The notes beneath the pieces are model-generated. The model did not search any database, was not told the DNA's origin, and saw nothing but the letters and a program-made list of their open reading frames with translations. The translations under genes were made by a program, and so were the position numbers. A DNA stretch of 64,000 nucleotides from an uncultured virus (IMG/VR IMGVR_UViG_3300042860_003432) (lineage: Duplodnaviria > Heunggongvirae > Uroviricota > Caudoviricetes). The first letter of the stretch is position 1, and every line of letters starts with the position of its first letter. The stretch is from IMG/VR virus record IMGVR_UViG_3300042860_003432, one strand, 5' to 3'. Of this stretch, positions 21,333 to 58,428 are shown one piece after another.

Positions 21333-21380
21333 ACGATATTTAAATCATAGCTAATTATGCCATATTGTCAATCTATAGTA

Positions 21381-24378: not shown

Positions 24379-24383
24379 AACTT

Positions 24384-27176: not shown

Positions 27177-27180
27177 TATA

Positions 27181-27615: not shown

Positions 27616-27616
27616 A

Positions 27617-29802: not shown

Positions 29803-29803
29803 A

Positions 29804-32203: not shown

Positions 32204-32206
32204 AAT

Positions 32207-32890
32207 TTATCCTTGTCCCATGTTAGCTTGTTTGGACCAGTTTTGGTTATAAAACAGGTTTTGCGCACGTTGCCTGTCTATTGTTTTGTCATGAATAATA
32301 GACCATTCAACTTCTTTAGGAAGCATAGTTACATACTCAGCACCAATCACAGTCTCGTGTAGCGGTTTTTGCCATTGTACCTTTAGGCTATTTTTATATA
32401 TACGAGATTGATAATCACCGTGATTCCAGTTTACTATTGGCTCATTACCAAAATATTCTGGTAGTGTACTAAGATGCCATCCCCACATAGCTGCATCTTG
32501 TGAAGTAGCTCCTCTTACAATATTTACTCTTGGAACTCTGTACAATTCAACTTTTGGATTAGACATTATCAATTCTTGCATATTATACAACAGTTCAGGC
32601 CACAGATATTCATCCGCGTCCAACTGGACTATATAATCTCCTACACAACGTTTACTTCCATAGTTTTTATGTTCGGAAAAGTTTTTATTTAGTGCATGTT
32701 GAATTATACTAAAGCCATAGTTTTTAGCTTTTTCCAGTATCTTTTTAGTACCTTCGTTATCAGAAAAATCATCAAGAATGACAACTTCGTCGTTCGGAGC
32801 ATTAAAATCGATGTGAGTCTTGAGCTTCTCGATTAGTTCAAGAAGCTCAAGTGTCTCATTTTTACACGTAACCAAATAACTTATTTTCAC
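32207..32890 (-). CDS. GT2 glycosyltransferase
   Basis: LDDFSD, LDADE, PRVN, DYQSRI, LHE. Confidence 0.85.
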   Translation of the reverse strand: MKISYLVTCKNETLELLELIEKLKTHIDFNAPNDEVVILDDFSDNEGTKKILEKAKNYGFSIIQHALNKNFSEHKNYGSKRCVGDYIVQLDADEYLWPELLYNMQELIMSNPKVELYRVPRVNIVRGATSQDAAMWGWHLSTLPEYFGNEPIVNWNHGDYQSRIYKNSLKVQWQKPLHETVIGAEYVTMLPKEVEWSIIHDKTIDRQRAQNLFYNQNWSKQANMGQG

Positions 32891-34185: not shown

Positions 34186-34204
34186 TTATATAACCTTTTT
34201 TTTA

Positions 34205-34396
34205 TTATGGTGCTGTACCGGGTGTGTTTTGACCTTCTTGTTCTTGAATAATCGCTTCCATCTCGGACTTAACATCGTTGATGCGATCCTTGAAGTCAGT
34301 CATAACAACTCGCTTTTCCATTTCGATTTCACGAAGTTGCTTGGCAAGTTCGTAGATTTTTGTCTTTGCTTCTTCTTTAGTCAATGCTTTAGCCAT
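34205..34396 (-). CDS. small coiled-coil hypothetical protein
   Basis: 63-aa ORF. Confidence 0.55.
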   Translation of the reverse strand: MAKALTKEEAKTKIYELAKQLREIEMEKRVVMTDFKDRINDVKSEMEAIIQEQEGQNTPGTAP

Positions 34397-34404
34397 AATA
34401 TTAT

Positions 34405-35883
34405 TTATTTGTTATATTTTTTTAGTACTTCATCTTTGTTAATCTTTGGAATCGGAAATCCAAGACTGTTGTTTGGCATATTGTGCCCAACATATTCGTC
34501 GTGACGATGAAGATTAAATCTTTCGCGACCTTTCCAGTTTGCCATCATATTTTCTAAGCCAGATGCCATTTTTTCACACATGCTTTCTGCACTTAGTCCA
34601 CCAACTCCGCACATCCATTCTCTACCTTCCAGTGCATACTCAAGGCGCTTTTCCTTGCTGGTCAAATACCAATACATAAATGCTTCAGCACAATCTTCCC
34701 ACTTGGCATAATCGGCAAGAATATATGGAGTAGGAATACTACCTTGCATCATTCTTGCACCCGGAAAGATTGGTGTAACCCATCTACCGTGTTTCTTATA
34801 TCTACCATCGGCATTAGTTCCCCATCCATTTTCAAATTGGACAGGATTTCCGGCATCGTCTGTAAATCCGCACTGGTCCTGAAGTCCTCCCGTAACCGTG
34901 ACGATGATTGGAGTACCCGCCATTACACTCTCCGCAGTGGCAATACCAAATCCCTCGTTGTCGGAAAGATTTACCGTCACATCTGCCATGTTGTAAAGTT
35001 GATTCATTCTTTCTGGCAGAACCTTTTCAACACTGAACACTACATCATAATTCGGGCAAAATGCCTGCTTACACGCGGGCAAATCAGTGCCTGCTTCATC
35101 TACTGGGTGTGTATGTAGAAACAATACGCACTTTGCTGCTTCTTCTTTTGGTAGATTGTCGCAGAATGCTCTGTAGGCAAGCATTATTGTACTGGTTTGC
35201 TTACGACGAATATTTCTATTGTTATAGAATATTACAAACTTATAGTCCTTCTTGAAATACTGTCTACGTATTAGTTGCAGTTCACTTAGTTCAGCATCTG
35301 TGGTCAACGGTCTAAACATCTTGCGATTGATGCCGTGCGGTACATACGATACAGTTGTAGGATTATTTAGTGTAGTTCCAAGAATATTCTTTACGATATT
35401 TTCTGTCTGCTTGCTGATACAACCAATCCAATCGCACGATTCATAATATGGACGATTATACATAGGATATGGAAGATCGTCCCAGATGCTATAGAACCCG
35501 ATTGGAATCTTCTGACGCAATTCACGCTCGATTTGATATAACCAGATCCAAAAACGCGGATCAGTAAAATGAAGCAGCGCATCAGGCTTTTCCATCTTAA
35601 TAACTTCGTTTAGAAGATTGGCGTCGCCATAACCATCAACCGGATATAGGCGAACGTATGCGTCGTCTATGCCAGCAACTTGGTTGGTGGCTTGGTCAAG
35701 ATTCATTATCTTGCCTTTTTCAGGATGCGTAACGCTACCTGCCATTTGTACCCAGTTGTATTTGCCTGCCAAGCCTGTAACAAACTCTCTTGCCATTGTA
35801 GCAATACCAGAATGCATTCTCAGGTCATCGCAAAGCAGTATAATCTTCTTTCTGTCCTTCTGAGGAATATAACTATTTACCAT
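34405..35883 (-). CDS. GT4-like glycosyltransferase
   Basis: HSGIAT, VPHGIN, RNIRRK, NEGFGIATAESVMAGTP; TTGACA-N16-CATAAT upstream. Confidence 0.9.
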   Translation of the reverse strand: MVNSYIPQKDRKKIILLCDDLRMHSGIATMAREFVTGLAGKYNWVQMAGSVTHPEKGKIMNLDQATNQVAGIDDAYVRLYPVDGYGDANLLNEVIKMEKPDALLHFTDPRFWIWLYQIERELRQKIPIGFYSIWDDLPYPMYNRPYYESCDWIGCISKQTENIVKNILGTTLNNPTTVSYVPHGINRKMFRPLTTDAELSELQLIRRQYFKKDYKFVIFYNNRNIRRKQTSTIMLAYRAFCDNLPKEEAAKCVLFLHTHPVDEAGTDLPACKQAFCPNYDVVFSVEKVLPERMNQLYNMADVTVNLSDNEGFGIATAESVMAGTPIIVTVTGGLQDQCGFTDDAGNPVQFENGWGTNADGRYKKHGRWVTPIFPGARMMQGSIPTPYILADYAKWEDCAEAFMYWYLTSKEKRLEYALEGREWMCGVGGLSAESMCEKMASGLENMMANWKGRERFNLHRHDEYVGHNMPNNSLGFPIPKINKDEVLKKYNK

Positions 35884-35928
35884 ATATAACCTTGTATTAT
35901 GTTTTAAATCTGCGTTATGTCAAATTAT

Positions 35929-42414: not shown

Positions 42415-43374
42415 TTACTCGCAGATTGTCAATAAACTTTCGCGTGAAATCTTATTTATAGCAAGTTCTTTCATCTTGAACTCAAAGTCGAGATGTAGAT
42501 TGCCTTTGTAGTTGGCATAAATAGACGGCATCATAGTAGGAAAGTCGGCGTGAGCACGCGGATTTTTGCCGGGCAATGATTCGCTGAAATGAAACAACGG
42601 AATAACTCCAGTTGGCCAAGTTGATAGTGCTGTATCAAACGCAAACTCTTCGCTGGTTGAGTCTGGATTACACATATGGTGCAGATTATCAAATGTAATT
42701 GGAATACCCAGTCGCTTGTATGTGTTTTCATATAATGCCATTACACTCCAACTCTTTAGTTTGTCTTCGTTCTCCAACACTAAACGACTACGCACACCGT
42801 CGCTCATATTATGATATACTTTCTGGAATCTATCTGTTGTTTCGGCATAGTTACCATTGTTATAACAGTTCATATGAATATTAATCGGTGCTTCGTATGA
42901 ACGAGGTAAATTAAGCATATCCATAATCATGGCGTGTTGATCCAAGTCTCGTATAGAGTTTTCAACAACTTTTGGATTTGGACTGGCAGGTACAACAAAC
43001 TGGTCAGGATGCATGCTACAACGAATGTTATTGTCCTGTATGATCTTAGCGGCTGCTCTGAATTCCGAGTATATTTCTTCGGCGTTATAAAAATCATCCA
43101 CAGTAAACTCCAGATCTGGGTGCGTCATCAATGGAAAAACATTACTACCAATGCGGTAATTCCAGTTATTAACCGCACACTCTCCAAGAACAGCACGAAT
43201 AGTCTTAATATTATTCAATGAACGATCAGCAAGCACTTTCATAGCAACCTTGCTACCCAACTTCTTATATTGGGCATATGTCATTACATTGAACTTGATT
43301 TTATGCTCTTGTAGTCCTGTATGGATACAGCATAGCGATGGAGTAATATTAGATGGTAAAATCATAGCATACAT
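42415..43374 (-). CDS. uvsE: UV damage endonuclease
   Basis: YRIGSN.FP, SMHPDQF, INIH, RLVLENED, FDNLHH, FHFSES, RAHAD, EFKMKE. Confidence 0.9.
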   Translation of the reverse strand: MYAMILPSNITPSLCCIHTGLQEHKIKFNVMTYAQYKKLGSKVAMKVLADRSLNNIKTIRAVLGECAVNNWNYRIGSNVFPLMTHPDLEFTVDDFYNAEEIYSEFRAAAKIIQDNNIRCSMHPDQFVVPASPNPKVVENSIRDLDQHAMIMDMLNLPRSYEAPINIHMNCYNNGNYAETTDRFQKVYHNMSDGVRSRLVLENEDKLKSWSVMALYENTYKRLGIPITFDNLHHMCNPDSTSEEFAFDTALSTWPTGVIPLFHFSESLPGKNPRAHADFPTMMPSIYANYKGNLHLDFEFKMKELAINKISRESLLTICE

Positions 43375-43458: not shown

Positions 43459-44175
43459 TTAAAACTTGACGGTAACAAATCCACCAAGCCAACTATTGTT
43501 GGTTGTGACAGAGTTGTTGAGGTAGTTATGGCGATAGCCAGCACCAACAACAACATTCTTGGCTTCATACACCAAGTCCAGTTTACCAGTTAGGTAATAA
43601 TACGAATCCTTGACTGGGCCACCACGGCGCTCTGGTAGAGCATCCTTGGCACCAACCCATCCAAGAGTAGCAGCAGGAACCAGCTTGAATCCCTTGGCGA
43701 GCAGGAAGAGGTTGATTGGCTGGCTGAGAGAGCCTTCAGCAAACACCTGACGCAGATTCAGGTCATATCCTGCTGCTACGGTTGGGCTCAAAAAAGCATC
43801 GTAAGCCAGAGATCCGAACACTTCAACACTATAATTTGTTTCGCCCTTTGCTGGTGCAGCCTTGGGGTAAAAATATCCCACGCCACCAACCTTGAGTGTA
43901 GTTGCCTTGTCAATAGTATATCCTTGAGTCAAGGCCACATCAAGTTCACGAACGGTTGTATTTAGATTATCAAAATCCCATAGACCGACGACACTCAAGC
44001 TGGTCTTAGATGGTAGATTGACGGTGACTTCGGAAGTACCTACATTGGTTCCTCCAGCTACACCACGAAATACATAGTCACTCTCAAATCCAGCAGTAGC
44101 CGATACTGTCTGGGAGAAAGAAACTGATGTGATCGCAATCAATCCTACGATTAGTTTAGTAATATATTTCTTCAT
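43459..44175 (-). CDS. outer-membrane beta-barrel protein (TorF/TIGR02001-like)
   Basis: Sec signal peptide, ESDYVFRG, alternating beta-strand pattern, C-terminal Phe. Confidence 0.75.
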   Translation of the reverse strand: MKKYITKLIVGLIAITSVSFSQTVSATAGFESDYVFRGVAGGTNVGTSEVTVNLPSKTSLSVVGLWDFDNLNTTVRELDVALTQGYTIDKATTLKVGGVGYFYPKAAPAKGETNYSVEVFGSLAYDAFLSPTVAAGYDLNLRQVFAEGSLSQPINLFLLAKGFKLVPAATLGWVGAKDALPERRGGPVKDSYYYLTGKLDLVYEAKNVVVGAGYRHNYLNNSVTTNNSWLGGFVTVKF

Positions 44176-44265: not shown

Positions 44266-44646
44266 TGGTGGACGTGAGGGGAGTTGAACCCCTGTGCTGT
44301 ATAATATAACTACAACCATATACATGCTTATCTCTTATAATCCGACTAAGTTTGGTAGAGCACCACTTAGAAGTTGAGGACTCGTGTTTCTCGCTGTTGT
44401 TACGACCCTCGTCCTTACAACAGCAAGCAGATGGTCGAGCGTTTTATTCTATATATCTGCGTCAATAGATAAAACGGGTAGCAACTTAGGCTACAGCAAC
44501 TTCGCTCTTACGGCTTACGCTTAGGAACGATGTCTTAGCAAGATTTCTCTTAGCATTTATTTTTTCCAACGGGTATTATACAGAGACATTAGACTCTGTG
44601 CATGCGGACTGCATCTACACTATATAGTAGAATCCAGAACACGCCC
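44266..44646 (-). ncRNA. ssrA: tmRNA
   Basis: 5' GGGCGUG pairs with 3' CACGUCC-A-CCA including G3:U70; T-arm GGGGUUCAACUCCCC; tag frame 44554..44486 encodes AKRNLAKTSFLSVSRKSEVAVA*. Confidence 0.93.
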
Positions 44647-46463: not shown

Positions 46464-46497
46464 AAAAAAGCCCCGAGAAATCGGGGCTTTTGTTTTT
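46464..46497. terminator. bidirectional intrinsic terminator
   Basis: aaaaagccccga-gaaa-tcggggcttttgttttt between convergent genes. Confidence 0.85.
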
Positions 46498-46512
46498 AGT
46501 AAATTTACTTAT

Positions 46513-47199
46513 TTACCAAGTAACAGTTACCATTCCTGCACCACCGGTTCCCTCGGTTTTGACAGGAGTACTGCTTTCTCCGGAGTATCCGCCGCCACCA
46601 CCGCCGCCCGGCAAATCACCATCGGTTGCGGTGATGAGTCTTGAACATGGACCTGCATCGTAATATGCAGCATTTCCACCGTTTCCGCCGCCCGCTGCTG
46701 CTCCAGATGCACCAAGAGATCCGGTTGGAGAGTGACCAAATTGGGAGAAAGATGCACCCGTGTCCAATCCATCTCCTGCGGCGATTCCATTTCCTAGCCC
46801 GCCAGCCGCTGATCCGCCGCCAGCAGCGCCATAATTTCCATATGCGCCCAAGAATGTTCCTCCTGTTCCTCCTGTGTATTTTGTACTTCCGGTGTTAAAT
46901 GCCGTTTGACCGGTAATTGTTCCGTCGGATCTTCCTCCAGCAGCCTGAAGACGAATTACGCTGGCAGATATAAAATTGGATACTCCACCATTTCCAAGAC
47001 CATCGGAGTTTGGTACACCGACATTTATTGTGTACGATCCAGATGGAACCGTAAACGCTATTGTTGCATAAGAAGCACCGGATCCCCCAGTACCGTTAGT
47101 ATTTCCGTTTCCACCGGCTCCCCAGCACGAAGCAGTAACGTTTCTCAGAGATTCTGTGACGGCTAATGTTCCGGATGTATAGTATGTTGTTGTAGGCAT
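46513..47199 (-). CDS. glycine-rich protein (tail-fibre-associated type)
   Basis: WGAGG, GGSGA, GGGGGG, GAGMVTVTW motifs. Confidence 0.7.
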   Translation of the reverse strand: MPTTTYYTSGTLAVTESLRNVTASCWGAGGNGNTNGTGGSGASYATIAFTVPSGSYTINVGVPNSDGLGNGGVSNFISASVIRLQAAGGRSDGTITGQTAFNTGSTKYTGGTGGTFLGAYGNYGAAGGGSAAGGLGNGIAAGDGLDTGASFSQFGHSPTGSLGASGAAAGGGNGGNAAYYDAGPCSRLITATDGDLPGGGGGGGYSGESSTPVKTEGTGGAGMVTVTW

Positions 47200-47286
47200 A
47201 ATTTATGATATGATTATTGTTCAGTTATAATTATAATATAGTTTCAATAAAACTTAACTTTTGTCGTATATACGAAATATTCTACT

Positions 47287-47694
47287 TTATGGTAAGTTTT
47301 TGTCTGAAATATCTAACGGAGTTGGCGTGACTTCTGGGGATGGAGGTGGGTTTGCCCACGGAGGAGGTAAATACGCAATTGGAGGATTTATCATGTTTTC
47401 TATTTGCTGATTAATATCCGCTTGCATCTGACTTAACTTATCTGGCCCTATAGATTCTTCGACCCACTCTTGAACCATAGCTTCTGTGAGTTGTTCGTAT
47501 GGTATAAATGGACGACTGCCGGAAACGAATGGAGCAATTGTTTGTGCACCGAATGTTTGGTGGCTATAGCTACTAGATACAACCTCTCGTGTTCCAGTAT
47601 AGTACCAATGTACTACATATACAACGTTTTCTAATCCATTTTGTTGTGTATATGTTTGCAGTGTAGGAAATGTCCAAGCGTATGTGGTTGCCAT
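47287..47694 (-). CDS. phage protein, probably tail-fibre associated
   Basis: TYAW..., VVHW, FIPYEQLTE..V.EWV, C-terminal Pro-rich. Confidence 0.65.
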   Translation of the reverse strand: MATTYAWTFPTLQTYTQQNGLENVVYVVHWYYTGTREVVSSSYSHQTFGAQTIAPFVSGSRPFIPYEQLTEAMVQEWVEESIGPDKLSQMQADINQQIENMINPPIAYLPPPWANPPPSPEVTPTPLDISDKNLP

Positions 47695-47724
47695 AAGTTT
47701 AATTTTTTAAGTTTTATATAATAA

Positions 47725-48579
47725 CTAAAACTTCTTATTTCTAAAGCGTTTTGCTGCTTGTCCCTGAAACTTTCTTATGTCTGTTCCTGCGTTCGTTTTT
47801 AGGAACTCTATGATCTTTTTCAATACTTGCATAAGCATTTTGACATCTTCTTTGGCATCGTGCCATCCATCAATCTTTACTCCAAGTGCTTGACCTAACT
47901 TACCAAGGCTTGAGCTATAGCTTTTGTATTTTGTTTTAGCGAGCAGTCCATCAAGCACTTGTTTGGCTTCTGGATTTGTTTCTAATGCTTGTAATGCTGG
48001 GATGAAGAAGAATCTGGATATATTCACTGTATCCAACACAGGATATCTCTTCATTGGCGGCAAGCCGTGTAGTTTTCTTCTCGCCGCAATAACTTTCATA
48101 TCAAATGTAGCGTTGTGTGCTAGTATCACAACATTCTGATATCTATCTAAAAACTTCTCAAACTCAATTAGTGCTTCTTTTTCATCAAGCTTTTCTGCGT
48201 TTGGTACATCATAGCCAGTCATCTTTAGTGCGTCTCGTGGATGTAGATCTGGCTTACCATACTTCTTTTCTCTGCGTGCCATTTCTTTACCAAGATGTTT
48301 TGCTTCAGCACTATTTGGATCATTCAATGCGTTGTTCAATGCAGGTCCAATGTTTATCTTTTTGCTAAACTCGCCGATTTCATTAAATGTTGAACCATCA
48401 TATACCATAGCAGCAATATGTGTTACTTGAATATATGATGTGTTTGGTTCTAAGCCAACGGTTTCTGTGTCAAACAATACTATTGTTTTACCGTCAAACT
48501 GCAAAAACTTTTCTAATACTTCACTTATATTGAAGGAATATAGCTTGGCTTCTTTTAGTATGTCTTTGAGTTTGATCAT
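47725..48579 (-). CDS. DEDDh 3'-5' exonuclease
   Basis: FDTETVGL, AHNATFD, LDT, HDAKEDV; start MIKLKDILKE at 48579. Confidence 0.9.
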   Translation of the reverse strand: MIKLKDILKEAKLYSFNISEVLEKFLQFDGKTIVLFDTETVGLEPNTSYIQVTHIAAMVYDGSTFNEIGEFSKKINIGPALNNALNDPNSAEAKHLGKEMARREKKYGKPDLHPRDALKMTGYDVPNAEKLDEKEALIEFEKFLDRYQNVVILAHNATFDMKVIAARRKLHGLPPMKRYPVLDTVNISRFFFIPALQALETNPEAKQVLDGLLAKTKYKSYSSSLGKLGQALGVKIDGWHDAKEDVKMLMQVLKKIIEFLKTNAGTDIRKFQGQAAKRFRNKKF

Positions 48580-48600
48580 ATCTATAAATATAAAGATATA

Positions 48601-48629
48601 AAAAAAGAGGGTGGAGAAATCCACCCTCT
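48601..48629 (-). terminator. intrinsic terminator
   Basis: aaaaaagagggtgga-gaaa-tccaccctct. Confidence 0.75.
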
Positions 48630-48850
48630 ACTGGTTTTCTTTTTTATTGGCTTATTTTGAGTAATCTTGGTCGAAAATAATGACCAAGCCCAAAACTGCC
48701 CAACATACAACGGCTGCTACCATGATATGTTTCTCCTATCTTAGAGCCACAGACCCATAGGTTTGGTGGCTGTTATAACTGAGCATATAACTATATACCC
48801 GATATTATAATAAATCGCTAAAATAGCAAGTATATTTTACTTTTTATAAA

Positions 48851-50350
48851 CTAACCTATGACTGAAAGCTTGAGGTTTCGTATCAACACATCATTCTTGA
48901 AGTTTACAAGTTTGAGTTGAAGTTCGAACTTATCGCCGTTTGGTATAACTTCTTTCATCTTTCCAAGATGTCCAACAGTCATAGTAAATGAGTGTGTAAT
49001 GGTTTTGTTTGTTGTACTCGGATCTCCATCCATTATCTTTACTCGACCAATATACTTTCCATTTACATATGCTTTGATGGCACATTTTCCAACGTGAAAT
49101 ACTGGTCCTGTTTCTATTTCCAATAATGATGTTCCGCCGTCTATTGCCTTACTAATCAAATCTTTTAACGTATTTTGCGGGCGAACATACAAAGATAACC
49201 CTTCACGTACTGTAGCATATTGATTTATTGGAGCAGATACACTGGCGTAGTTTGTTGATACGCTTGTGGGAACAGTCAAATTATTATCGGATGGTACAGC
49301 ATATGATACTGTGTTCATCTTTGTCATAATATCTTTGATTGTTACAGTAACAGGAGAACCATCAATGTCTGGGAATGTATATACTTGTTGACCCCACGGA
49401 CCATCAAGATCTGGCATTGGATTTCTGTATAGTGAGAATATGCGATCTATATTTCCGTGATGCATAAAGAATATAGGATCATTTGCCGCATATCTTAGAG
49501 TTCCCATATTACGATTCTTACCATAACGAGTACCTACCCAATCGTGGCCATCATTGTGTGGTCCAGATTCCACCAACCCTTGGCCAGTTGCTCTATCTGT
49601 AACAGGCTTCCCGCCAAATTGTTCCCAAGGGGTTGTAAGAACAAGATTGATATATTCTGGACTCATATAGTTTTTGCACTCTTGAACGTGAGCTTTTGAA
49701 TCTTGTGAAACTTCGTTGTTTGGATCCATTTTGCTCTTTTGTATTGTTGGTCCACGATTTCCGTCAAACAATGCAATGTTGTCAAATCCAAGATTATCGG
49801 CGTTTACCATATTCTCTTGAGTAAGATCATATCCAAACAGCGGACTCGCCAAACCTCTTGCTTCACGTTCTTTTGTGTTTGGTATTTCTTGATGTGCACA
49901 CCAATCCCAGAATGGATATGCAAAGGGTACACCGTTGTATCCCAACTTATCCAAACAGTTTGCGAGTATTCTTTCTAAGAAGAAAATATAGCCACGATGC
50001 CAAGGTAGAAAATGCCAACCCCAATGTACTTGAGGGTTTGCTGCATCCGAAGCTGTGCAGTGTTTCATATGAATATTTGCATATGATTCCCATTGGGTAG
50101 GTGTTCCCATAGGAAGAGTATTTCGCATATAGTCAACTGCTTTACACAGCGTTCTTACTTCTTCGTCGGTAAGATCATAAAAGCTTTTGCGAACTCTGTT
50201 TGGTTCTTTTCCAAATACAAAAGGTTTTGCGTTTGGATCACACAGTTCAACGGGCTTATTTATTCCACCCGGTTGAGCCGAATTCAATGTAGCTACACTG
50301 GTCAACCCGATGGCACCAGTACCAATAAATTTTCTTCTTGATATTTTCAT
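48851..50350 (-). CDS. Tat-exported tyrosinase/polyphenol oxidase (type-3 copper)
   Basis: SRRKFI twin-Arg signal; CuA H...QVHWGWHFLPWHRGY; PFWDW; CuB PHNDGH...DPIFFMHHGNIDRI; C-terminal beta domain. Confidence 0.9.
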   Translation of the reverse strand: MKISRRKFIGTGAIGLTSVATLNSAQPGGINKPVELCDPNAKPFVFGKEPNRVRKSFYDLTDEEVRTLCKAVDYMRNTLPMGTPTQWESYANIHMKHCTASDAANPQVHWGWHFLPWHRGYIFFLERILANCLDKLGYNGVPFAYPFWDWCAHQEIPNTKEREARGLASPLFGYDLTQENMVNADNLGFDNIALFDGNRGPTIQKSKMDPNNEVSQDSKAHVQECKNYMSPEYINLVLTTPWEQFGGKPVTDRATGQGLVESGPHNDGHDWVGTRYGKNRNMGTLRYAANDPIFFMHHGNIDRIFSLYRNPMPDLDGPWGQQVYTFPDIDGSPVTVTIKDIMTKMNTVSYAVPSDNNLTVPTSVSTNYASVSAPINQYATVREGLSLYVRPQNTLKDLISKAIDGGTSLLEIETGPVFHVGKCAIKAYVNGKYIGRVKIMDGDPSTTNKTITHSFTMTVGHLGKMKEVIPNGDKFELQLKLVNFKNDVLIRNLKLSVIG

Positions 50351-50387
50351 AACCTATATAACTATAACTATAAAAAATAACAAAATA

Positions 50388-50996
50388 TCATCTAACTACT
50401 AAACTTGTAGTTTCACTTTTTACAAGTCCAGCAGTATTGCGTGCTTCTACTTTATAGTTTCCTGAATCAGCAGTTGTAATATTGGCTAGTTTTAGGCTTG
50501 CATTTGTTTTTCCCGCTAAAACTACATTATTTTTATACCAAGTAAATCTCAACGGTCCAGTTGCAGCAGCATCAACATTTGCTTTTATAGTAATATCATC
50601 GCCAACATATGCATCTGCTTGCAAACTATATAAATCACCTTCAAGCAACCAAAAGTTTCTGCTTATTCTGGTTAGTTTCCATTGCGAACCCATTTTTCGC
50701 GTTCTAAAAGCATCATCCGATTGTAGTATAATAACACCGTTTTCTCCAACAATATTTATTGTACCATCCGATAATGCTGTGCCATATATTTCTGTGCCTG
50801 TGCCAAATACATTAGTTCTTTCAAATGGCACAACAAATCTAACCGTTGAGTTATTTGGCGTCTGCATCGCAATCAAATAACCAGAATCTCTGTTTGTTAT
50901 TTTATATTCGGTGCTTGTGCTTATGGTTTTTACATCCAAAGCATATGATGTAAGAGCAACTGTCAAGAATGTCAGTAATAGAAATATCTTTTTCAT
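50388..50996 (-). CDS. secreted protein with C-terminal immunoglobulin domain
   Basis: Signal peptide; FTWYKN...L.L.NIT.ADSGNY.V.A.N..G. Confidence 0.8.
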   Translation of the reverse strand: MKKIFLLLTFLTVALTSYALDVKTISTSTEYKITNRDSGYLIAMQTPNNSTVRFVVPFERTNVFGTGTEIYGTALSDGTINIVGENGVIILQSDDAFRTRKMGSQWKLTRISRNFWLLEGDLYSLQADAYVGDDITIKANVDAAATGPLRFTWYKNNVVLAGKTNASLKLANITTADSGNYKVEARNTAGLVKSETTSLVVR

Positions 50997-51113
50997 ATAC
51001 CGTATAAATATAATATATACGGTATGAAAATATTATAAACCGTTGATTAGTTTCTAATCATACTGATTTTCACGCCACTAATATATGGCGTGAATAATCA
51101 AACCTCAATAATT

Positions 51114-51449
51114 TTATCCGCGAATAATTTGGATTCTAACCTGATTAGGAGCAACTGGCGTAACAACAACAATAGCAAGAGGATCGCTATCAGCAGTGCC
51201 CCAGTTATTGGTTGCACGAAGCTTGTATGTGCCAGCATCTGTTAGAGCAATGGCATTGAATACAAGATTTGCACCAGTAGCAACTTGAACATCATTCTTG
51301 AACCACGCAAATGTGATTGGAGTTGTGCCCTGTGCTTCACCAGCAAGTGTGATTTTTGTGCCAGTATATTCTGTTGATTGTGTTTGAGCAAACAAACTCG
51401 TAGCTGAAACTAACAACGCTAAAATGCCTGAGACTAGTAGTTTTTTCAT
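51114..51449 (-). CDS. secreted single immunoglobulin-domain protein
   Basis: Signal peptide; GT.PITFAWFKN...DAGTY..RATNNWG. Confidence 0.8.
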   Translation of the reverse strand: MKKLLVSGILALLVSATSLFAQTQSTEYTGTKITLAGEAQGTTPITFAWFKNDVQVATGANLVFNAIALTDAGTYKLRATNNWGTADSDPLAIVVVTPVAPNQVRIQIIRG

Positions 51450-51697
51450 AATTTATGGATTTTATCTTTCAACCATAAATATCTTCGTATATATGAAAAA
51501 CGTATATATAAAAACTCATTGGAAAAATTCACCAGCGATGTATTACACCAGCAATAATAAACATATTGGTGACGATGTAAAAAAGTACAATGAGCGTGCG
51601 AACAAATGCAACTTTATCTGCTTCACAATTATCTTCACTTGCTTTTTCACCAAGTGATTTTGCCCATATTCTCCAAAATGATTTTAGCATAAATTAT

Positions 51698-51784
51698 TGG
51701 TGGGCATACTCGGACTTGAACCGAGACTCGCGTTACGCGAAACTCATTTTAAGTGAGTTGTGGCTACCATTACACCATATGCCC
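51698..51784 (-). tRNA. tRNA-Leu(UAA)
   Basis: Cloverleaf, anticodon arm ACTCA-CTTAAAA-TGAGT, long V arm, CCA. Confidence 0.92.
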
Positions 51785-51794
51785 GTATATTAAA

Positions 51795-52370
51795 TTAAAC
51801 TCTTCCCTTAGTAAAACCTTTTGGTATTGGGTCGCTTTTGGGAACTAACTTACTTATTTTTCCATCAGTAATCCAATGCTTTCCATAAGATGGATTATTT
51901 TTTCCATCCACTTTTCCTTTTCTCGACTCGCTAATTTTTTTCTTGGTTTCTTCTTTGTGCTTTCTTCCTTTCCAACCGTTACCACCGATACTCATTTTAT
52001 ATAAGTGAAGTCTTGCTCTGTTTTTTTCTGCAAACTCTTCTCTCCACACAGGATCATTTTCTCTTAACCATTTTATTTTTTTTCTCGCGAAATCTATATC
52101 TCCGACTCCCCCCAAACTAACATTATACGTATCGTCTCTTGCTATAAATTCTTGATCTACAATGTCCGCTTCTTTTTGCCACATTTCTTTTTCGGAAGAA
52201 CATTCTGTTATTATTTCTTTCTTAAAGAAATCTCTTCCATATTTTTTAATGGCACGCATAATTAGCACTCCGGAACCAAGATAAGAATCTTCTTTGTTTA
52301 GAGTTTTGTGTGCTCCTATATAAATTTTATTATTAATCGTGTTGGTAATTTTGTATATGATGTAATGCAT
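51795..52370 (-). CDS. GIY-YIG homing endonuclease (Seg-like, NUMOD3)
   Basis: IIYKITN..N.KIYIG, YLGSG, E..., YN, KGRKHKEETKKKISES; free-standing between tRNA genes. Confidence 0.9.
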   Translation of the reverse strand: MHYIIYKITNTINNKIYIGAHKTLNKEDSYLGSGVLIMRAIKKYGRDFFKKEIITECSSEKEMWQKEADIVDQEFIARDDTYNVSLGGVGDIDFARKKIKWLRENDPVWREEFAEKNRARLHLYKMSIGGNGWKGRKHKEETKKKISESRKGKVDGKNNPSYGKHWITDGKISKLVPKSDPIPKGFTKGRV

Positions 52371-52427
52371 ATACAAATAAATATAGTCCAAGTCGGAAAA
52401 AACAATGAACTCGGACTTATTATATGA

Positions 52428-52439
52428 TGTTAAAGAACA
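52428..52439 (-). promoter_or_regulatory. boxA-like antitermination motif
   Basis: TGTTCTTTAACA, one mismatch to E. coli rrn boxA TGCTCTTTAACA. Confidence 0.6.
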
Positions 52440-52446
52440 AAGTTAT

Positions 52447-52530
52447 TGGTAGCCAGAGCGGGGATCGAACCCGCAACCCTTTCGGGAGCAGTTTTTGAGA
52501 CTGCCGTGTATACCATTCCACCATCTGGCC
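52447..52530 (-). tRNA. tRNA-Leu(CAA)
   Basis: GCAGT-CTCAAAA-ACTGC anticodon arm, V arm, TTCGA, CCA. Confidence 0.92.
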
Positions 52531-52536
52531 AAAAAA

Positions 52537-52613
52537 TGGTAGTCGCGAAGGGACTCGAACCCCTGACCCTCTCGGTGTAAACGAGATGCTCTAACCAACT
52601 GAGCTACACGACC
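52537..52613 (-). tRNA. tRNA-Val(UAC)
   Basis: TCTCG-TTTACAC-CGAGA, canonical D and T arms, CCA. Confidence 0.95.
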
Positions 52614-52619
52614 ATAATT

Positions 52620-52708
52620 TGGTGGGCGAGACAGGACTCGAACCTGCACAGAATTTAATCTAATGGCTTCTAAGACCATCGCGTATTAGCCAATTCCGCC
52701 ACTCGCCC
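52620..52708 (-). tRNA. tRNA-Leu(UAG)
   Basis: ATGGT-CTTAGAA-GCCAT, V arm, TTCGA, CCA. Confidence 0.92.
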
Positions 52709-52710
52709 AA

Positions 52711-52754
52711 TTCAAAGAACACCTATACTCTACACACTTTATTTATTTCGTCAA
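52711..52754 (-). promoter_or_regulatory. sigma70-type promoter plus boxA-like motif for the tRNA operon
   Basis: TTGACG-N16-TAGAGT followed by TGTTCTTTGAA directly before tRNA-Leu(UAG). Confidence 0.65.
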
Positions 52755-53087
52755 GAACTTTCTGCGATAAACTGCATATCCCAATCCAATCATTCCTGCA
52801 AACAATGCATATGTAGACGGTTCAGGTACAGCAGGACCGCAATAATCTTTATCATAACCACCTCCACCGCCATAATATGGACGCTTGTATTTATCGTCAT
52901 CATCGTCATCATCTTCATCGTCATCATCCCAATCATAACTGCTGCTCATACTAATCATCTGCACAGGGTCTGTATATGACGGCTGAAATGTGCTCATAAT
53001 ATCATAATTACCAAAATCTACAACAGAGTCATTGGCAAAAATGCCGCTAACAAACATAGTAAAGATAAACAATAGTTTCTTATTCAT
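52743..53087 (-). CDS. PEP-CTERM sorting domain protein
   Basis: Signal peptide, poly-Asp tract, C-terminal VPEPSTYALFAGMIGLGYAVYRRK. Confidence 0.9.
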   Translation of the reverse strand: MNKKLLFIFTMFVSGIFANDSVVDFGNYDIMSTFQPSYTDPVQMISMSSSYDWDDDDEDDDDDDDKYKRPYYGGGGGYDKDYCGPAVPEPSTYALFAGMIGLGYAVYRRKFLTK

Positions 53088-56463: not shown

Positions 56464-58428
56464 TCAAGGCTTTGGAGGCAGGAATGTGCCTGTACCAGCA
56501 TTGACTGGATATACTCCACTCAAGTTGGTAGCAAAACTCAATGCACTCAAATCTGTTACTCCCTTGGCATTGAACGTAAGTGCCGAGGTCTTTAGCAGAT
56601 TGGATAGTGTAATATTTCCGCCAGCAGTTAGTGTTAGAGCACCAACCAACGAGTTTGTAGAAGCGGCAGAAGTATTGAAAATATCTCCACCACTTACAAC
56701 GCTGGTAGTTCCACCGTTCAATGAACCAATGTTTGTACTATTGAGTTCATTTAGGTTGATTGCTCCAGTGCCAGCAGCGACTGACACCAATCCAAAGTTG
56801 TTGTTTGGTTGAGTCAGGCTAACTTCAGCATTATTGGTATTGACGACCAAGTTTCCACGAACATCCATAGAAGTTGTAGGAACTTGAGTAACTGCTGCTC
56901 CAGCAATACCTGTGGTAGAAACGGTAAGGTTTCCGCCAACATTAGTCGTACCAAGCGAAGTAGCACGAGCCTGTGTCAGTACCGCATCAGTTGTAGCAGT
57001 TAGTGTAACATTTCCGAGGTTGTTTAGACCGGCGGGATCGTTAAGATTTACATTTGTCGCAGTAAGATTGCTTGCGCCAGCAGTAACGCGGCTAGTAGCG
57101 AGCAATTGCACAATGTCATTCTTACTTGTGGCAACCAGATTGCCAGTTACAGCAACACGGTTTAGGTTGAGTGTAGCGTCCTCAACGATAGTAGCATTAC
57201 CACGAACATCAAGGCTTACTGGACCAAAACTATGCTTTGCACGAGCAATATTGACATCACCAGTTGTAACAAATGATGTCGGACCGTACACGAACTGCTT
57301 TTCTGCTGTATCAACTACAGTAGGAGCGGTAAATGTAGTATTACCAGAACTTCCCAAGGCAACGCCAGTCAAGGCGATGCGGGACAGTGCCGTTACAGTT
57401 GTATCACCAGTTCCGCTGTTAGTAACATTGGCAAGAGTAACCGCACCACCACCAAGAGTGATGTTGCCAGCCGCCATTACATTATAGTTTGTAGAAGCGG
57501 CGGTACTTGCAGCAACAATGTTATTGCCACTAACCGTAACATTTGTGCTGGTCAAGCGTGGAAGCGAAACATCCTTACCAGAGACAGTCAGGTTTGTTAC
57601 GTTGAGCGTACCAGTACCTTGTGTGACAGCACCAGCGGTCAAAGCGCCAGTAGCATTGATGGTGATATTTCCAGTAGAAGTAATAAAGCCGTTAGGAGCA
57701 ATGATTACATTTCCGCCGGAAGTATTGATGTCGGTCTTGCCATTTAGCACAGCAGGAGCAGCAAAACTGGAACCCAGAACGGCATTACCGCCGTATGTAT
57801 TGACTACAAGATTTCCAGTAACAATGGCACCTCCAATGTTTGTGTTACGAGAAGCAATGGTAATGTTCTCCGAAACTGCCTGCAACACCGCGCCATCAGT
57901 AACGGTTACTCCATTTGTGAGAACGCTCGTGGGCAGGTTGTCTTGGCTGGGCAACTTTGCGTTGGTATTCCAGTATCCAAGAGAAACAGTAGGATCGTCA
58001 ACGGTGCTGACGTATAATCCAGCAACATTGATGGTGCTAGTACCACCGATAAGTACGCCGTTTGGATTTAGAATGAACACTCGTCCATTCGACTCGATGG
58101 CACCGTTGATGGTGCTGGCTGCTCCACCGGAGACGATATTCAGCACAGACGAGTTGGTTGCAGGCAATGTGTATTCAATGCGCTGACCGGCGTCAATCGT
58201 GTTCGTTCCACTGCCAAAAGCCTGCCAGTTAAGCACAGCCTTGTTTGGTGCAGAAATGCTCAGTGTGTTTGCAGTTCCATTTACTAAAACACCCGCTGTC
58301 GTTTGTAGATTGGTGGCGTCGATGCTCGGAAGAGCAAAGACATGCGCCACGGCGAATACAAACACCATCAACGAAGACAATGTCTTCGTCCACAGCGAGT
58401 TATTATGTGTATTTTTATTGTATTTCAT
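56464..58428 (-). CDS. filamentous-haemagglutinin-like beta-helical exoprotein (TPS N-terminal domain)
   Basis: Signal peptide; AVLNWQAF, SVLNIVSGG..S.ING.IESNGRVFILNPNGVLIG; T/N/G/V-rich repeats. Confidence 0.85.
   Translation of the reverse strand: MKYNKNTHNNSLWTKTLSSLMVFVFAVAHVFALPSIDATNLQTTAGVLVNGTANTLSISAPNKAVLNWQAFGSGTNTIDAGQRIEYTLPATNSSVLNIVSGGAASTINGAIESNGRVFILNPNGVLIGGTSTINVAGLYVSTVDDPTVSLGYWNTNAKLPSQDNLPTSVLTNGVTVTDGAVLQAVSENITIASRNTNIGGAIVTGNLVVNTYGGNAVLGSSFAAPAVLNGKTDINTSGGNVIIAPNGFITSTGNITINATGALTAGAVTQGTGTLNVTNLTVSGKDVSLPRLTSTNVTVSGNNIVAASTAASTNYNVMAAGNITLGGGAVTLANVTNSGTGDTTVTALSRIALTGVALGSSGNTTFTAPTVVDTAEKQFVYGPTSFVTTGDVNIARAKHSFGPVSLDVRGNATIVEDATLNLNRVAVTGNLVATSKNDIVQLLATSRVTAGASNLTATNVNLNDPAGLNNLGNVTLTATTDAVLTQARATSLGTTNVGGNLTVSTTGIAGAAVTQVPTTSMDVRGNLVVNTNNAEVSLTQPNNNFGLVSVAAGTGAINLNELNSTNIGSLNGGTTSVVSGGDIFNTSAASTNSLVGALTLTAGGNITLSNLLKTSALTFNAKGVTDLSALSFATNLSGVYPVNAGTGTFLPPKP

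What the first reader, a model, noticed from the sequence alone, without database searches (positions are those of the whole stretch)
48851..50350. Tat-exported type-3 copper polyphenol oxidase in a phage
Seen: twin-arginine leader (SRRKFI), intact CuA and CuB histidine sets, and a C-terminal beta domain like the shielding domain of latent PPOs/tyrosinases. Inference: the enzyme works in the periplasm or outside the infected cell, making melanin or quinones (UV/oxidative shielding, which fits with uvsE in this window), cross-linking surface or virion proteins, or oxidising humic phenolics. This is not an enzyme class I associate with phages.
Basis: partly seen in the sequence, partly recalled or inferred. 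Interest (0 to 1): 0.8.

Follow-up and report, generated by a model that had tools for sequence, protein, structure and literature searches.

The report
Phage-borne exported latent tyrosinase
Large T4-like phages from lake water carry an intact gene for tyrosinase, the copper enzyme that turns phenols into quinones and melanin, complete with an export signal and a self-inhibiting lid; I found no description of this enzyme class in phages.

Summary
ORF 48851-50350 (-) encodes a 499-aa type-3 copper protein (Pfam Tyrosinase, E 2.7e-34). All six copper histidines, a plant-type thioether Cys (C98) and the Glu/Asn/Asp activity residues are invariant in 120 of 120 relatives. An SRRKFI twin-arginine leader is present, and RR is kept in 114 of 120. 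The predicted C-terminal beta-domain superposes, together with the core, on latent plant polyphenol oxidases (Z about 30).

It is truly phage-borne. The window is full of phage genes, and the gene with both flanks recurs in independent assemblies. Relatives lie in two CheckV-complete genomes of about 296 kb, and in a third long contig, that encode T4-type capsid and terminase. In an outgroup-rooted tree all 18 viral copies fall in one 113-row clade, sister to a Verrucomicrobiota-MAG clade. The gene is under purifying selection, and perfect-match fragments occur in two metatranscriptome libraries.

Most likely it is a latent pro-tyrosinase, kept silent by its lid in the cytoplasm, exported by the host Tat system and activated outside. 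What it does for the phage (pigment shielding, envelope cross-linking or phenol removal) is untested.

No tyrosinase homologue was found in 50,697 phage records, PHROGs or BFVD, and five literature searches found no description.

The parts
48851..50350 (-). Pro-tyrosinase gene, 499 codons plus stop (protein P0001)
   Evidence: ORF list and translation. Pfam PF00264 at 119.9 bits.
50276..50350 (-). Twin-arginine (Tat-type) leader, about residues 1-25: MKISRRKFIGTGAIGLTSVATLNSA. The cleavage site (after A20 or A25) is inferred by eye.
   Evidence: The sequence is. RR is kept in 114 of 120 relatives, and RRx[FLIVM][LIVFMA] is found in 110 of 120. Residues 1-32 have pLDDT below 50. TIGR01409 gives only 12.0 bits against a 16.7 cut-off.
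49316..50209 (-). Catalytic four-helix-bundle core, about residues 48-345
   Evidence: VIA alignment to grape and walnut PPO: Z 30, rmsd 2.4 A over 274-276 residues, 28% identity.
49997..50071 (-). CuA site: H94, C98 (thioether-type Cys four residues after the first His), H109, H118
   Evidence: All four residues are invariant in 120 of 120 relatives. H94 and C98 align with the plant 'vhctyc / vhcayc' stretch (first CuA His and its +4 Cys) of 2p3x, 5ce9 and 1bt1.
49457..49570 (-). CuB site and activity residues: E261 (waterkeeper position), H265, N266, H269, D270, L285, H297, H298
   Evidence: All are invariant in 120 of 120 relatives. The roles are taken from passages of PMC10526336.
48854..49255 (-). 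C-terminal beta-sandwich lid domain, about residues 366-499
   Evidence: Strands 368-498 in the model. Latent plant PPOs align through residue 499. There is no sequence-level match.
48986..48988 (-). Codon of F455, the candidate placeholder residue that plugs the active site
   Evidence: F455 and G435 are the only invariant lid residues (120 of 120), and H453 is kept in 119 of 120. The assignment is therefore inferred.
48606..48629 (-). Intrinsic-terminator-like hairpin (10 bp stem, 6 G-C pairs, then a T-run) that closes the transcription unit
   Evidence: the sequence is shown.
48652..48723 (-). 23-codon hydrophobic mini-ORF (MVAAVVCWAVLGLVIIFDQDYSK) between the gene and the terminator. Its status is unknown.
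   Evidence: Read. It cannot be present in L010/L012/L015, where an opposite-strand gene follows the tyrosinase after about 35 nt.
50388..50996 (-). Upstream Ig-domain protein with a Sec-type leader, 37 nt from the tyrosinase start and probably co-transcribed with it
   Evidence: Pfam Ig_3 and I-set. L083 keeps both Ig-domain genes beside a tyrosinase fragment that is 78% identical (for identity, for the flanks).

Best explanation
The gene encodes a functional, latent pro-tyrosinase that the phage makes during infection. The proposed sequence of events is as follows. (1) The protein folds and takes up two copper ions in the host cytoplasm. (2) Its C-terminal beta-domain sits over the dicopper site, with invariant F455 as the likely plug. 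This keeps it from oxidising cytoplasmic tyrosine to toxic quinones. (3) The SRRKFI twin-arginine leader sends the folded holo-enzyme through the host Tat translocase to the periplasm. (4) The lid is cut off or displaced there, or after lysis. (5) The freed enzyme hydroxylates monophenols and oxidises o-diphenols to o-quinones outside the cytoplasm. E261, N266 and D270 predict true monophenolase activity. The quinones would go on to polymerise to melanin-like material or cross-link proteins. Shown here: domain identity, ligand and motif conservation, fold, phage carriage, purifying selection. Inferred: copper loading, Tat dependence, lid removal, substrates. My leading guess for the benefit to the phage is quinone or melanin chemistry at the envelope of the infected cell (shielding or hardening it during a long latent period). 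I put that at only about 0.3, with superinfection exclusion by envelope cross-linking at about 0.25 and removal of inhibitory phenolics at about 0.2. The confidence given is for the molecular mechanism, not for the role.
For: Enzyme identity: Pfam Tyrosinase E 2.7e-34. Six His ligands, C98, E261, N266, D270, L285 and F455 are each invariant in 120 of 120 relatives.

Fold: model pLDDT 86.3. Latent plant PPOs align across core plus lid at Z 28-29.8, lid-bearing Ralstonia and Hahella tyrosinases at Z 25.4-25.7, and the V. spinosum core at Z 25.3.

Precedents: V. spinosum tyrosinase is described as a Tat-exported pre-pro-enzyme whose C-terminal domain lowers activity from 213 to 0.67 U/mg and whose modelled plug is a Phe (passages of PMC10526336). 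Asn or Asp at HisB1+1 and HisB2+1 gave the highest monophenolase activity in mutants (same paper).

Export: RR is kept in 114 of 120 relatives, and the three cellular homologues examined have it too. Residues 1-32 are disordered in the model.

Phage carriage: 13 tRNAs and a tmRNA lie in the window, with many phage replication and homing-endonuclease genes. Relatives occur on 21 IMG/VR contigs. Three of the 5 records searched (G002 and G003, both CheckV 100%, and G004) have Gp23 and terminase; the two that lack them, G001 and G005, are 18% and 25% complete fragments.

Against misassembly: the flanks recur at 98.3-99.98% identity in four other assemblies, and DNA contigs of two runs bridge both borders.

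Selection: pN is 0.25-0.32 against a saturated pS of 0.69-0.88, and gene GC 0.395 is close to window GC 0.378.

Expression hint: perfect-match contigs inside the gene occur in two metatranscriptome libraries from different studies.
Against: The curated Tat-signal HMM is below its cut-off for this protein (12.0 against 16.7 bits), and only 18 of 90 relatives match it at E <= 1. Six relatives have RK or KR in place of RR. The lid has no sequence-level homology to any known lid family. The contact of F455 with the copper site could not be measured. No enzymatic activity, copper content, export or cleavage has been tested. The RNA-library fragments could be carried-over DNA, and contigs show no strand. 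The host is unknown, so the presence of a Tat system in it is assumed. No TatA or HMA copper-chaperone homologue is encoded by the five phage records searched. Nothing distinguishes the possible biological roles.
Confidence: 0.7

Rival explanations
1. The enzyme is a catechol oxidase or an o-aminophenol oxidase that acts on one particular small molecule, for example a phage- or host-made metabolite or a siderophore-like catechol. On this view it is not a general tyrosinase or melanin maker.
For: The closest solved structures are plant catechol oxidases and aurone synthase. NCBIfam gives weak hits to the BagH/FevF o-aminophenol oxidase model, 43 bits. Substrate range cannot be read from the sequence with certainty.
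Against: The BagH/FevF hit is far below its 630-bit cut-off. N266 and D270 are the residue types at HisB1+1 and HisB2+1 that gave the highest monophenolase activity in mutants (passages of PMC10526336). The plant gatekeeper position is probably Leu (L285), not the bulky Phe of catechol oxidases (inferred from spacing). No biosynthetic partner genes sit beside it in the window or in L007/L015.
Confidence: 0.12
2. The protein is not exported. The RR motif is incidental, and the enzyme works in the cytoplasm of the infected cell or is released only by lysis.
For: The Tat HMM is below its cut-off. Lytic phages release all cell contents anyway, so a latent enzyme could simply wait for lysis.
Against: An N-terminal RR followed by a hydrophobic stretch is kept in 110-114 of 120 relatives across clades that are only 41-78% identical. 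The region is otherwise variable, which is the pattern of a functional signal. Cellular homologues and the characterised V. spinosum enzyme carry the same kind of leader.
Confidence: 0.1
3. The enzyme is packaged in, or acts on, the virion, for example by tanning or cross-linking capsid decoration proteins encoded next to it.
For: The two upstream genes hit PHROG 'Hoc-like head decoration' families.
Against: Those neighbours, like the tyrosinase, have N-terminal export leaders, and capsids assemble in the cytoplasm. The PHROG hits are to generic Ig domains. The neighbours are not kept next to the gene in G002 or G003. No TATAAATA late-promoter motif lies on the minus strand within about 5 kb upstream of the gene.
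Confidence: 0.05
4. The gene is a passenger without function, or the contig is a chimera or cellular DNA wrongly called viral.
For: The window's own assembly is not held. One relative sits on a contig binned into a Bacteroidota MAG (L016).
Against: The same junctions are found in four other assemblies and in contigs of two runs. Relatives lie inside two complete T4-like genomes. L016 carries the same phage endonuclease neighbour as L005, L007 and L009. There is strong conservation with no stop codons in 22 viral loci, and the gene's GC is ameliorated to that of the phage.
Confidence: 0.02

Closest known systems
Verrucomicrobium spinosum tyrosinase (vsTyr, PDB 8BBQ/8BBR)
   Same: Both are bacterial-type pre-pro-enzymes with a Tat leader, a caddie-independent core, an inhibitory C-terminal domain and a Phe proposed as plug (passages of PMC10526336). 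Glu waterkeeper and Asn at HisB1+1 are shared. The core superposes at Z 25.3, rmsd 2.4 A, 28% identity.
   Different: vsTyr has its thioether Cys two residues before the second CuA His (C84-H86). Here the Cys is four residues after the first His, and the -2 position is Q, P or A in 120 of 120 relatives. vsTyr has Asn at HisB2+1 where this family has Asp. Sequence similarity is low (phmmer E 1.5e-11). vsTyr is chromosomal, whereas this gene is phage-borne.
Plant polyphenol oxidases, 'type i' of PMC11803259 (grape 2P3X, walnut 5CE9, latent aurone synthase 4Z11-4Z14, apple 6ELS, tomato 6HQI)
   Same: These are the best sequence matches among single-domain solved structures (E 1e-24 to 1e-19) and the best structural matches (Z 28-30). 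The position of the thioether Cys is the same. The core and lid are arranged in the same way.
   Different: No PF12142 (PPO1_DWL) or PF12143 (KFDV) domain is detectable. A Tat leader replaces the plastid transit peptide. The plant gatekeeper Phe is probably replaced by Leu. Type i is defined as plant-only.
Lid-bearing tyrosinases of Pseudomonadota (Ralstonia TYR 7XIO, Hahella 8B74, Burkholderia thailandensis 5ZRD)
   Same: Both have a core plus C-terminal lid and are produced as zymogens (PMC9454253 passage). They align over model residues 48-499 at Z 19.7-25.7.
   Different: Identity is only 22-24%. In the metagenome search the family is separated from all other bacterial tyrosinases by a gap: 41-78% identity, then 31% or less.
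Streptomyces MelC2 / MelC1 caddie-type tyrosinases (1WX2)
   Same: The dicopper core is the same (Z about 19.5).
   Different: The NCBIfam MelC2 model scores 43.8 bits against a cut-off of 450. There is no caddie gene beside it, and a lid is present instead.

Membership tests
Type-3 copper proteins, Pfam Tyrosinase PF00264 | Match to the family HMM above the gathering score | tested here: met
   119.9 bits against 22.6, residues 85-309
Type-3 copper proteins, Pfam Tyrosinase PF00264 | Three His ligands for CuA and three for CuB | tested here: met
   H94, H109, H118 and H265, H269, H298 are invariant in 120 of 120 relatives and align to plant ligands
Type-3 copper proteins, Pfam Tyrosinase PF00264 | Binds two copper ions and oxidises phenols with O2 | not testable with these tools
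   Needs recombinant protein and an assay
Latent (lid-bearing) pro-tyrosinases / pro-PPOs | C-terminal beta-sandwich domain packed over the active-site face of the core | tested here: met
   This rests on a predicted structure only. Latent 4z13, 6els and 6hqj align over model residues 31-40 to 499, with 392-399 residues aligned and Z 29.7-29.8. Model pLDDT is 86.3.
Latent (lid-bearing) pro-tyrosinases / pro-PPOs | A lid residue (placeholder) inserted above the dicopper site | tested here: inconclusive
   F455 is invariant in 120 of 120 relatives, but model coordinates could not be read, so no distance was measured
Latent (lid-bearing) pro-tyrosinases / pro-PPOs | Activation by removal of the lid | not testable with these tools
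   Needs protease or SDS activation assays
Plant PPO type i (PMC11803259) | PF00264 followed by the PF12142 middle domain, and mostly by the PF12143 lid | tested here: not met
   Only PF00264 is found at E <= 1. The C-terminal 159 residues hit no Pfam family at E <= 10.
Plant PPO type i (PMC11803259) | Thioether Cys four residues after the first CuA His | tested here: met
   H94 and C98 align with the plant His and +4 Cys. The definition comes from a passage of the paper. The feature is not unique: 4 of 44 distant bacterial metagenome tyrosinases also have it with a long loop.
Tat (twin-arginine) substrates | S/T-R-R-x-F-L-K-like motif followed by a moderately hydrophobic stretch at the N-terminus | tested here: met
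   The leader reads SRRKFIG followed by TGAIGLTSVATL. The motif is found in 110 of 120 relatives. The consensus itself is recalled, not taken from a call.
Tat (twin-arginine) substrates | Curated Tat-signal HMM (TIGR01409) above its cut-off | tested here: not met
   12.0 bits against 16.7. Of 90 relatives, 18 match at E <= 1.
Tat (twin-arginine) substrates | Export depends on TatABC | not testable with these tools
   The host is unknown, so this needs reporter fusions
Streptomyces-type MelC2 tyrosinase with caddie | Equivalog HMM above its cut-off and an adjacent caddie gene | tested here: not met
   NF047834 gives 43.8 bits against 450. The neighbours are an Ig-domain protein and an exonuclease.
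Known phage protein families (PHROGs v4) | Match to any of the 38,880 PHROG families | tested here: not met
   0 families at E <= 1

The most novel reading that the evidence does not exclude
Most of this plant-like tyrosinase family is a phage gene family. It would have been captured once from a Verrucomicrobiota-like cell and then spread among very different T4-like lake phages. Infected cells and their lysates would then be a regular source of extracellular phenol oxidase. Viral infection would in that case contribute directly to quinone, melanin or humic chemistry and to phenol-oxidase activity in fresh water. It could also give phages a previously unrecognised way of tanning the envelope of the cell they occupy.
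Probability: 0.25. Interest if true: 0.8.

Novelty: new variant of a known kind. Interest (0 to 1): 0.66.

Why it matters
Auxiliary genes of phages are known for photosynthesis, nucleotide, sulfur and carbon metabolism. I found no description of a copper phenol oxidase made for export among them. If the enzyme is active, phage infection would place a quinone-generating enzyme in the host envelope or in the water. That bears on how virocells protect themselves, on superinfection and grazing, and on the unexplained sources of phenol-oxidase activity that control breakdown of phenolic organic matter in lakes and wetlands.

The family is also a natural experiment for enzymologists. It pairs the plant-type thioether position with Asn and Asp at the two 'activity controller' positions. 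According to the V. spinosum structure paper, no structurally characterised enzyme has that combination natively. It also has a lid with no sequence resemblance to the known lid families.

Tried and rejected
Searches and ideas that led nowhere:

1. Tat HMM: below the cut-off for this protein, and few relatives match. I therefore relied on a motif count.

2. The lid by sequence: phmmer against PDB gave only a chance hit to ribosome recycling factor at E 1.4, and Pfam gave nothing at E <= 10.

3. Host identification. The window's own assembly is not held. Relatives of the TPS-domain neighbour carry no taxon names. The protein atlas names Pseudomonadota only for distant clusters, which is no evidence of host. 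The cellular homologue contigs have 57-64% GC against about 38% for the phage, so they are unlikely hosts. The host remains unknown; only a diderm with exosortase and Tat is implied.

4. Phage-encoded helpers: no TatA (PF02416) and no HMA copper chaperone in the 5 records searched, 2 of them complete.

5. The idea that the Tyr/Gly/Asp-rich PEP-CTERM protein is the enzyme's substrate. The PEP-CTERM gene is absent from G002, G003 and G004. The PEP-CTERM protein next to the cellular homologue in L078 has only 1.9% Tyr. I dropped the idea to a passing note.

6. T4 late-promoter motif: TATAAATA is over-represented in the window (17 against 8.1 expected), but none lies on the minus strand just upstream of the gene.

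7. The 'moraphage' paper describes a different, non-T4 lineage (passages).

8. Earlier scan notes: nothing for this genome or sequence. The word search found only unrelated cellular tyrosinases.

10. RNA libraries cover only short parts of the laid stretch. The uncovered parts say nothing.

11. Plant-type Cys as a unique mark: rejected, because 4 of 44 distant bacterial sequences share it.
Full report
OBSERVATION. Pfam finds the tyrosinase central domain at residues 85-309 (119.9 bits, cut-off 22.6). The best single-domain matches among solved structures are plant polyphenol oxidases: walnut 5ce9 at E 1e-24, grape 2p3x at 4e-22, and tomato, aurone synthase and sweet potato at 1e-20 to 1e-18. 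Multi-unit mollusc hemocyanins score higher only because they repeat the domain. PHROGs has no family for the protein.

ACTIVE SITE. I aligned 120 relatives taken from a 5.8-billion-protein search. That search gave 198 hits at E <= 1e-5; the best 120 were listed and all carry PF00264. The following residues are invariant in 120 of 120: H94, H109, H118 (CuA); H265, H269, H298 (CuB); H97; C98; E261; N266; D270; L285; H297. In the C-terminal domain G435 and F455 are invariant too, and H453 is kept in 119 of 120.

C98 lies four residues after the first CuA histidine. Pairwise alignments put H94 and C98 on the plant 'vhctyc / vhcayc' stretch (the first CuA His and its +4 Cys) of grape, walnut and sweet-potato enzymes. 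Mollusc hemocyanins instead have Cys two residues before the second His, where this family has Q, P or A and never C. A PPO classification paper (PMC11803259, passages read) gives exactly this distinction: plant 'type i' has the Cys four after the first His, while mollusc, bacterial type k and fungal long PPOs have it two before the second His. The feature is plant-like but not unique. Of 44 distant bacterial metagenome tyrosinases with a recognisable CuA motif, 4 also have the +4 Cys with a long loop.

E261, N266 and D270 occupy the 'waterkeeper', HisB1+1 and HisB2+1 positions. The V. spinosum structure paper (PMC10526336, passages read) says that Asn or Asp at both controller positions gave the highest monophenolase activity in aurone-synthase mutants. 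It also says that no structurally characterised PPO natively has Asp at HisB2+1. On that basis I predict a true tyrosinase (monophenolase plus diphenolase). This is an inference.

FOLD AND LID. AlphaFold2 with the 120-sequence alignment gave mean pLDDT 86.3 and pTM 0.86. Residues 1-32 are below pLDDT 50, and an all-beta domain runs from about residue 366 to 499. Foldseek's best PDB matches are latent aurone synthase, tomato PPO and latent apple tyrosinase, over 505-526 alignment columns.

VIA-align gives these values:
- Grape and walnut cores: Z 30.0 and 29.9, rmsd 2.4 A over 274-276 residues, 28% identity.
- Latent 4z13, 6els and 6hqj: Z 29.7-29.8, aligned from model residues 31-40 through 499, 392-399 residues.
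- Ralstonia 7xio 25.7, Hahella 8b74 25.4, V. spinosum core 25.3.
- Hemocyanin units about 20; Streptomyces and Bacillus enzymes about 19.5.

So the C-terminal domain is a shielding-lid look-alike in fold and in position. By sequence it matches nothing. F455 is my candidate for the plug, by conservation and by analogy with Phe453 of vsTyr and with F513 named in the Aspergillus pro-tyrosinase mutant entries. I could not read model coordinates, so this is not shown.

EXPORT SIGNAL. Residues 4-9 are SRRKFI, followed by TGAIGLTSVATL. RR is present in 114 of 120 relatives; 6 have RK or KR, the alignment shows gaps at the RR columns in 3, and 4 sequences (P0057, P0085, P0086, P0102) show no leader at all. 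RRx[FLIVM][LIVFMA] occurs in the first 90 residues of 110 of 120. The three cellular homologues I examined have it as well. Against this, TIGR01409 scores 12.0 bits against a cut-off of 16.7, and only 18 of 90 relatives match it at E <= 1. vsTyr is described as Tat-exported. I rate Tat export at about 0.75.

IS IT A PHAGE, AND IS THE ASSEMBLY SOUND? The window holds 13 tRNA genes and a tmRNA. It also holds T4-type RNA ligase, clamp-loader, dNMP kinase, dUTPase, helicase, exonucleases and HNH and GIY-YIG homing endonucleases. The nearest held record, G001, is a 60 kb viral contig that CheckV rates 18% complete, which implies a genome of about 330 kb.

IMG/VR holds relatives at 22 loci on 21 contigs, at 42-100% identity. 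Of the 5 records searched, 3 carry Terminase_6N and the T4 Gp23 capsid protein above Pfam cut-offs: G002 (295,831 bp, CheckV 100%), G003 (297,258 bp, 100%) and G004 (108,995 bp, 60%). The two short fragments, G001 and G005, lack them. The capsid proteins are 62% identical between G002 and G003 and only about 30% identical between G004 and either. The gene therefore spans very different T4-like lineages.

The gene with both flanks recurs at 99.95% over 17.5 kb in L002, at 98.3% over 47724-51701 in L001 and L003, and at 99.98% in G001. Logan contigs of two runs, dated 2020 and 2024, bridge both borders: 47825-52000 and 48113-50717. One of them may be the source sample. At least 18 lake-water metagenome runs hold 98-100% of the sampled words of the 2 kb stretch. 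In G003-type phages the gene sits on the other side of the exonuclease / DUF7936 / Gly-rich block, so its position is not fixed.

FAMILY, ORIGIN, SELECTION. Among 185,579 species genomes the only close hit is L016, a 4.7 kb contig binned into a Bacteroidota MAG (56% identity). It carries the same phage endonuclease neighbour as L005, L007 and L009, so it is probably a mis-binned phage fragment. The other 25 hits are distant: 23-28% over long matches, or 38-42% over the roughly 50-residue CuB segment only.

A metagenome scan found 528 relatives, and of the best 80 kept, 17 have 41-78% identity and the rest 31% or less. Of those 17, 10 share flanking genes with G002, G003 or the window, 4 are too short or uninformative, and 3 (L077, L078, L080) share none. 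Those three have 57-64% GC and are flanked by pyruvate:ferredoxin oxidoreductase, sulfite reductase, PQQ dehydrogenase, thiolase, prephenate dehydrogenase and a MacB/FtsX transporter, so they are cellular. L077 encodes P0096, which NCBI names 'tyrosinase family protein' of Verrucomicrobiota MAGs under three MAG accessions.

I built a FastTree of 150 rows: the 120 relatives, 17 viral-locus proteins, 3 cellular-locus proteins and 10 distant tyrosinases as outgroup. All 18 viral-labelled rows fall in one 113-row clade (SH-like support 91, which is below the tool's star threshold of 95). That clade is sister to the 6-row Verrucomicrobiota-MAG clade, and a 19-row cellular clade is basal. This fits one old capture followed by spread among phages. 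However, 95 rows of the clade are unlabelled, the outgroup branches are long, and FastTree is the weakest of the offered methods.

Between phage copies pN is 0.25-0.32 while pS is 0.69-0.88, which is saturated. Gene GC is 0.395 against 0.378 for the window. This indicates long residence and purifying selection.

EXPRESSION AND TRANSCRIPTION UNIT. Two metatranscriptome libraries from different studies each hold a contig with no differences inside the gene (49488-49687 and 49453-49630). One of them also covers the second Ig-domain gene upstream, 51114-51449 (contig at 51108-51315). DNA carry-over cannot be excluded and contigs show no strand, so this is only a hint.

The gene starts 37 nt after an Ig-domain gene. 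It is followed by a 23-codon hydrophobic mini-ORF and a strong terminator-like hairpin at 48629-48606. No TATAAATA motif lies on the minus strand just upstream.

SURROUNDINGS. Several other proteins destined for the envelope lie nearby: two Ig-domain proteins with Sec-type leaders (50388-50996 and 51114-51449), a PEP-CTERM protein (52743-53087, above both curated cut-offs), a 654-aa TPS-domain exoprotein (56464-58428) and a Gcw_chp outer-membrane protein (43459-44175). These imply a diderm host with exosortase, two-partner secretion and, if my reading is right, Tat. The UV-damage endonuclease UvdE is real (42415-43374), but its presence does not test the photoprotection idea.

MECHANISM AND RIVALS. 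Best reading (0.7): the protein is a latent pro-tyrosinase that is copper-loaded and kept closed by its lid in the cytoplasm. It is then exported folded by the host Tat system, opened outside, and there makes o-quinones from phenols. The classification paper states the usual rationale for lids, namely protection against reactive quinones inside the cell.

What the phage gains is open. My ranking is: pigment or quinone shielding or hardening of the virocell envelope (about 0.3), cross-linking for superinfection exclusion (about 0.25), removal of inhibitory phenolics (about 0.2). Rival readings are a narrower catechol or o-aminophenol oxidase (0.12), a protein that is not exported (0.10), a virion-associated enzyme (0.05), and a passenger gene or artefact (0.02).

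COMPARISON AND NOVELTY. The protein works like vsTyr and like latent plant PPOs. It is not a member of plant type i, because PF12142 and PF12143 are absent, nor of the caddie-type MelC2 family. It forms its own well-separated subfamily.

I found no tyrosinase homologue in 50,697 GenBank phage records by tblastn at E <= 1e-3, none among 38,880 PHROG families, and no tyrosinase fold in BFVD, where all hits have TMq <= 0.18. The tool warns that records very near the window may be left out.

Five full-text searches found no paper describing a phage or viral tyrosinase (listings only were seen, apart from the passages cited):
- tyrosinase + phage + 'auxiliary metabolic': 1 unrelated paper (passages read).
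- polyphenol oxidase + viral + AMG: 6 papers, not opened.
- tyrosinase / virus-encoded / melanin / bacteriophage: 177 papers hold at least three of the four terms. The 20 listed did not concern phage-encoded tyrosinase, and the rest were not examined.
- tyrosinase + 'jumbo phage': 1 unrelated paper.
- tyrosinase + AMGs + 'viral contigs': 0 papers.

The wetland-tyrosinase review (PMC9454253) has no occurrence of 'virus' or 'phage'. Supplementary AMG tables were not searched and might list the KEGG tyrosinase entry.

LIMITS. No activity, copper, export or cleavage data exist. The host is unknown. The lid contact was not measured. The tree is FastTree only. The RNA evidence is weak.

Noticed in passing
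window 52743-53087 (-): A phage-encoded PEP-CTERM protein of 114 aa (TIGR02595 21.9 bits against 16; PF07589 22.1 against 20.7). Its short mature part is rich in Asp (18), Tyr (11) and Gly (10) out of about 95 residues. It is present in G001 and G005 but not in G002, G003 or G004. It implies a host with an exosortase.
   Followed up: partly
window 56464-58428 (-): A 654-aa protein with a two-partner-secretion (TPS / filamentous haemagglutinin N-terminal) domain and DUF5649 repeats. It sits in a stretch of raised GC (0.43 against about 0.37). More than 100 relatives of about 657 aa exist in metagenomes at 34-45% identity. It may be a recently acquired exoprotein.
   Followed up: partly
window 44266-44646 (-), and 13 tRNA genes between 51698 and 63735: A phage-borne tmRNA gene (tag peptide AKRNLAKTSFLSVSRKSEVAVA) and a scattered set of 13 tRNA genes interleaved with small ORFs and homing endonucleases.
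   Followed up: no
window 50388-50996 and 51114-51449 (-): Two Ig-domain proteins that PHROGs calls 'Hoc-like head decoration' carry Sec-type N-terminal leaders. They are therefore more likely exported proteins than capsid decorations. L083 keeps both next to a tyrosinase fragment that is 78% identical.
   Followed up: partly
window 51701-52689 and 46497-47724: The strain variants L001 and L003 do not align here by blastn. The first stretch holds the GIY-YIG homing endonuclease (51795-52391) among tRNA genes. The second holds the DUF7936 and Gly-rich genes. These are presence/absence polymorphisms either side of an almost invariant tyrosinase gene (1 synonymous difference in 1500 nt).
   Followed up: partly
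window about 19200-35900 (-): A long run of sugar-nucleotide and glycan genes: epimerase, aminotransferase, HAD hydrolase, methyltransferase, FabG-like reductase, UDP-glucose dehydrogenase-like, and three glycosyltransferases. It may serve DNA or virion glycosylation or host surface modification.
   Followed up: no
window 48652-48723 (-): A 23-codon hydrophobic mini-ORF with a GGAGA upstream, lying between the tyrosinase stop and the terminator. It cannot be present in L010/L012/L015, where an opposite-strand gene follows the tyrosinase after about 35 nt.
   Followed up: no
L078 8402-9205 (+): In a cellular (61% GC) contig, the gene directly after the tyrosinase homologue is a PEP-CTERM protein (PF07589, 29.3 bits). 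This echoes the phage window, but the protein is not Tyr-rich (1.9%).
   Followed up: partly
window 43459-44175 (-) and 42415-43374 (-): A Gcw_chp-family outer-membrane protein with a leader (PF09694, 25.1 bits) sits next to a UvdE UV-damage endonuclease (PF03851, 151.8 bits).
   Followed up: no
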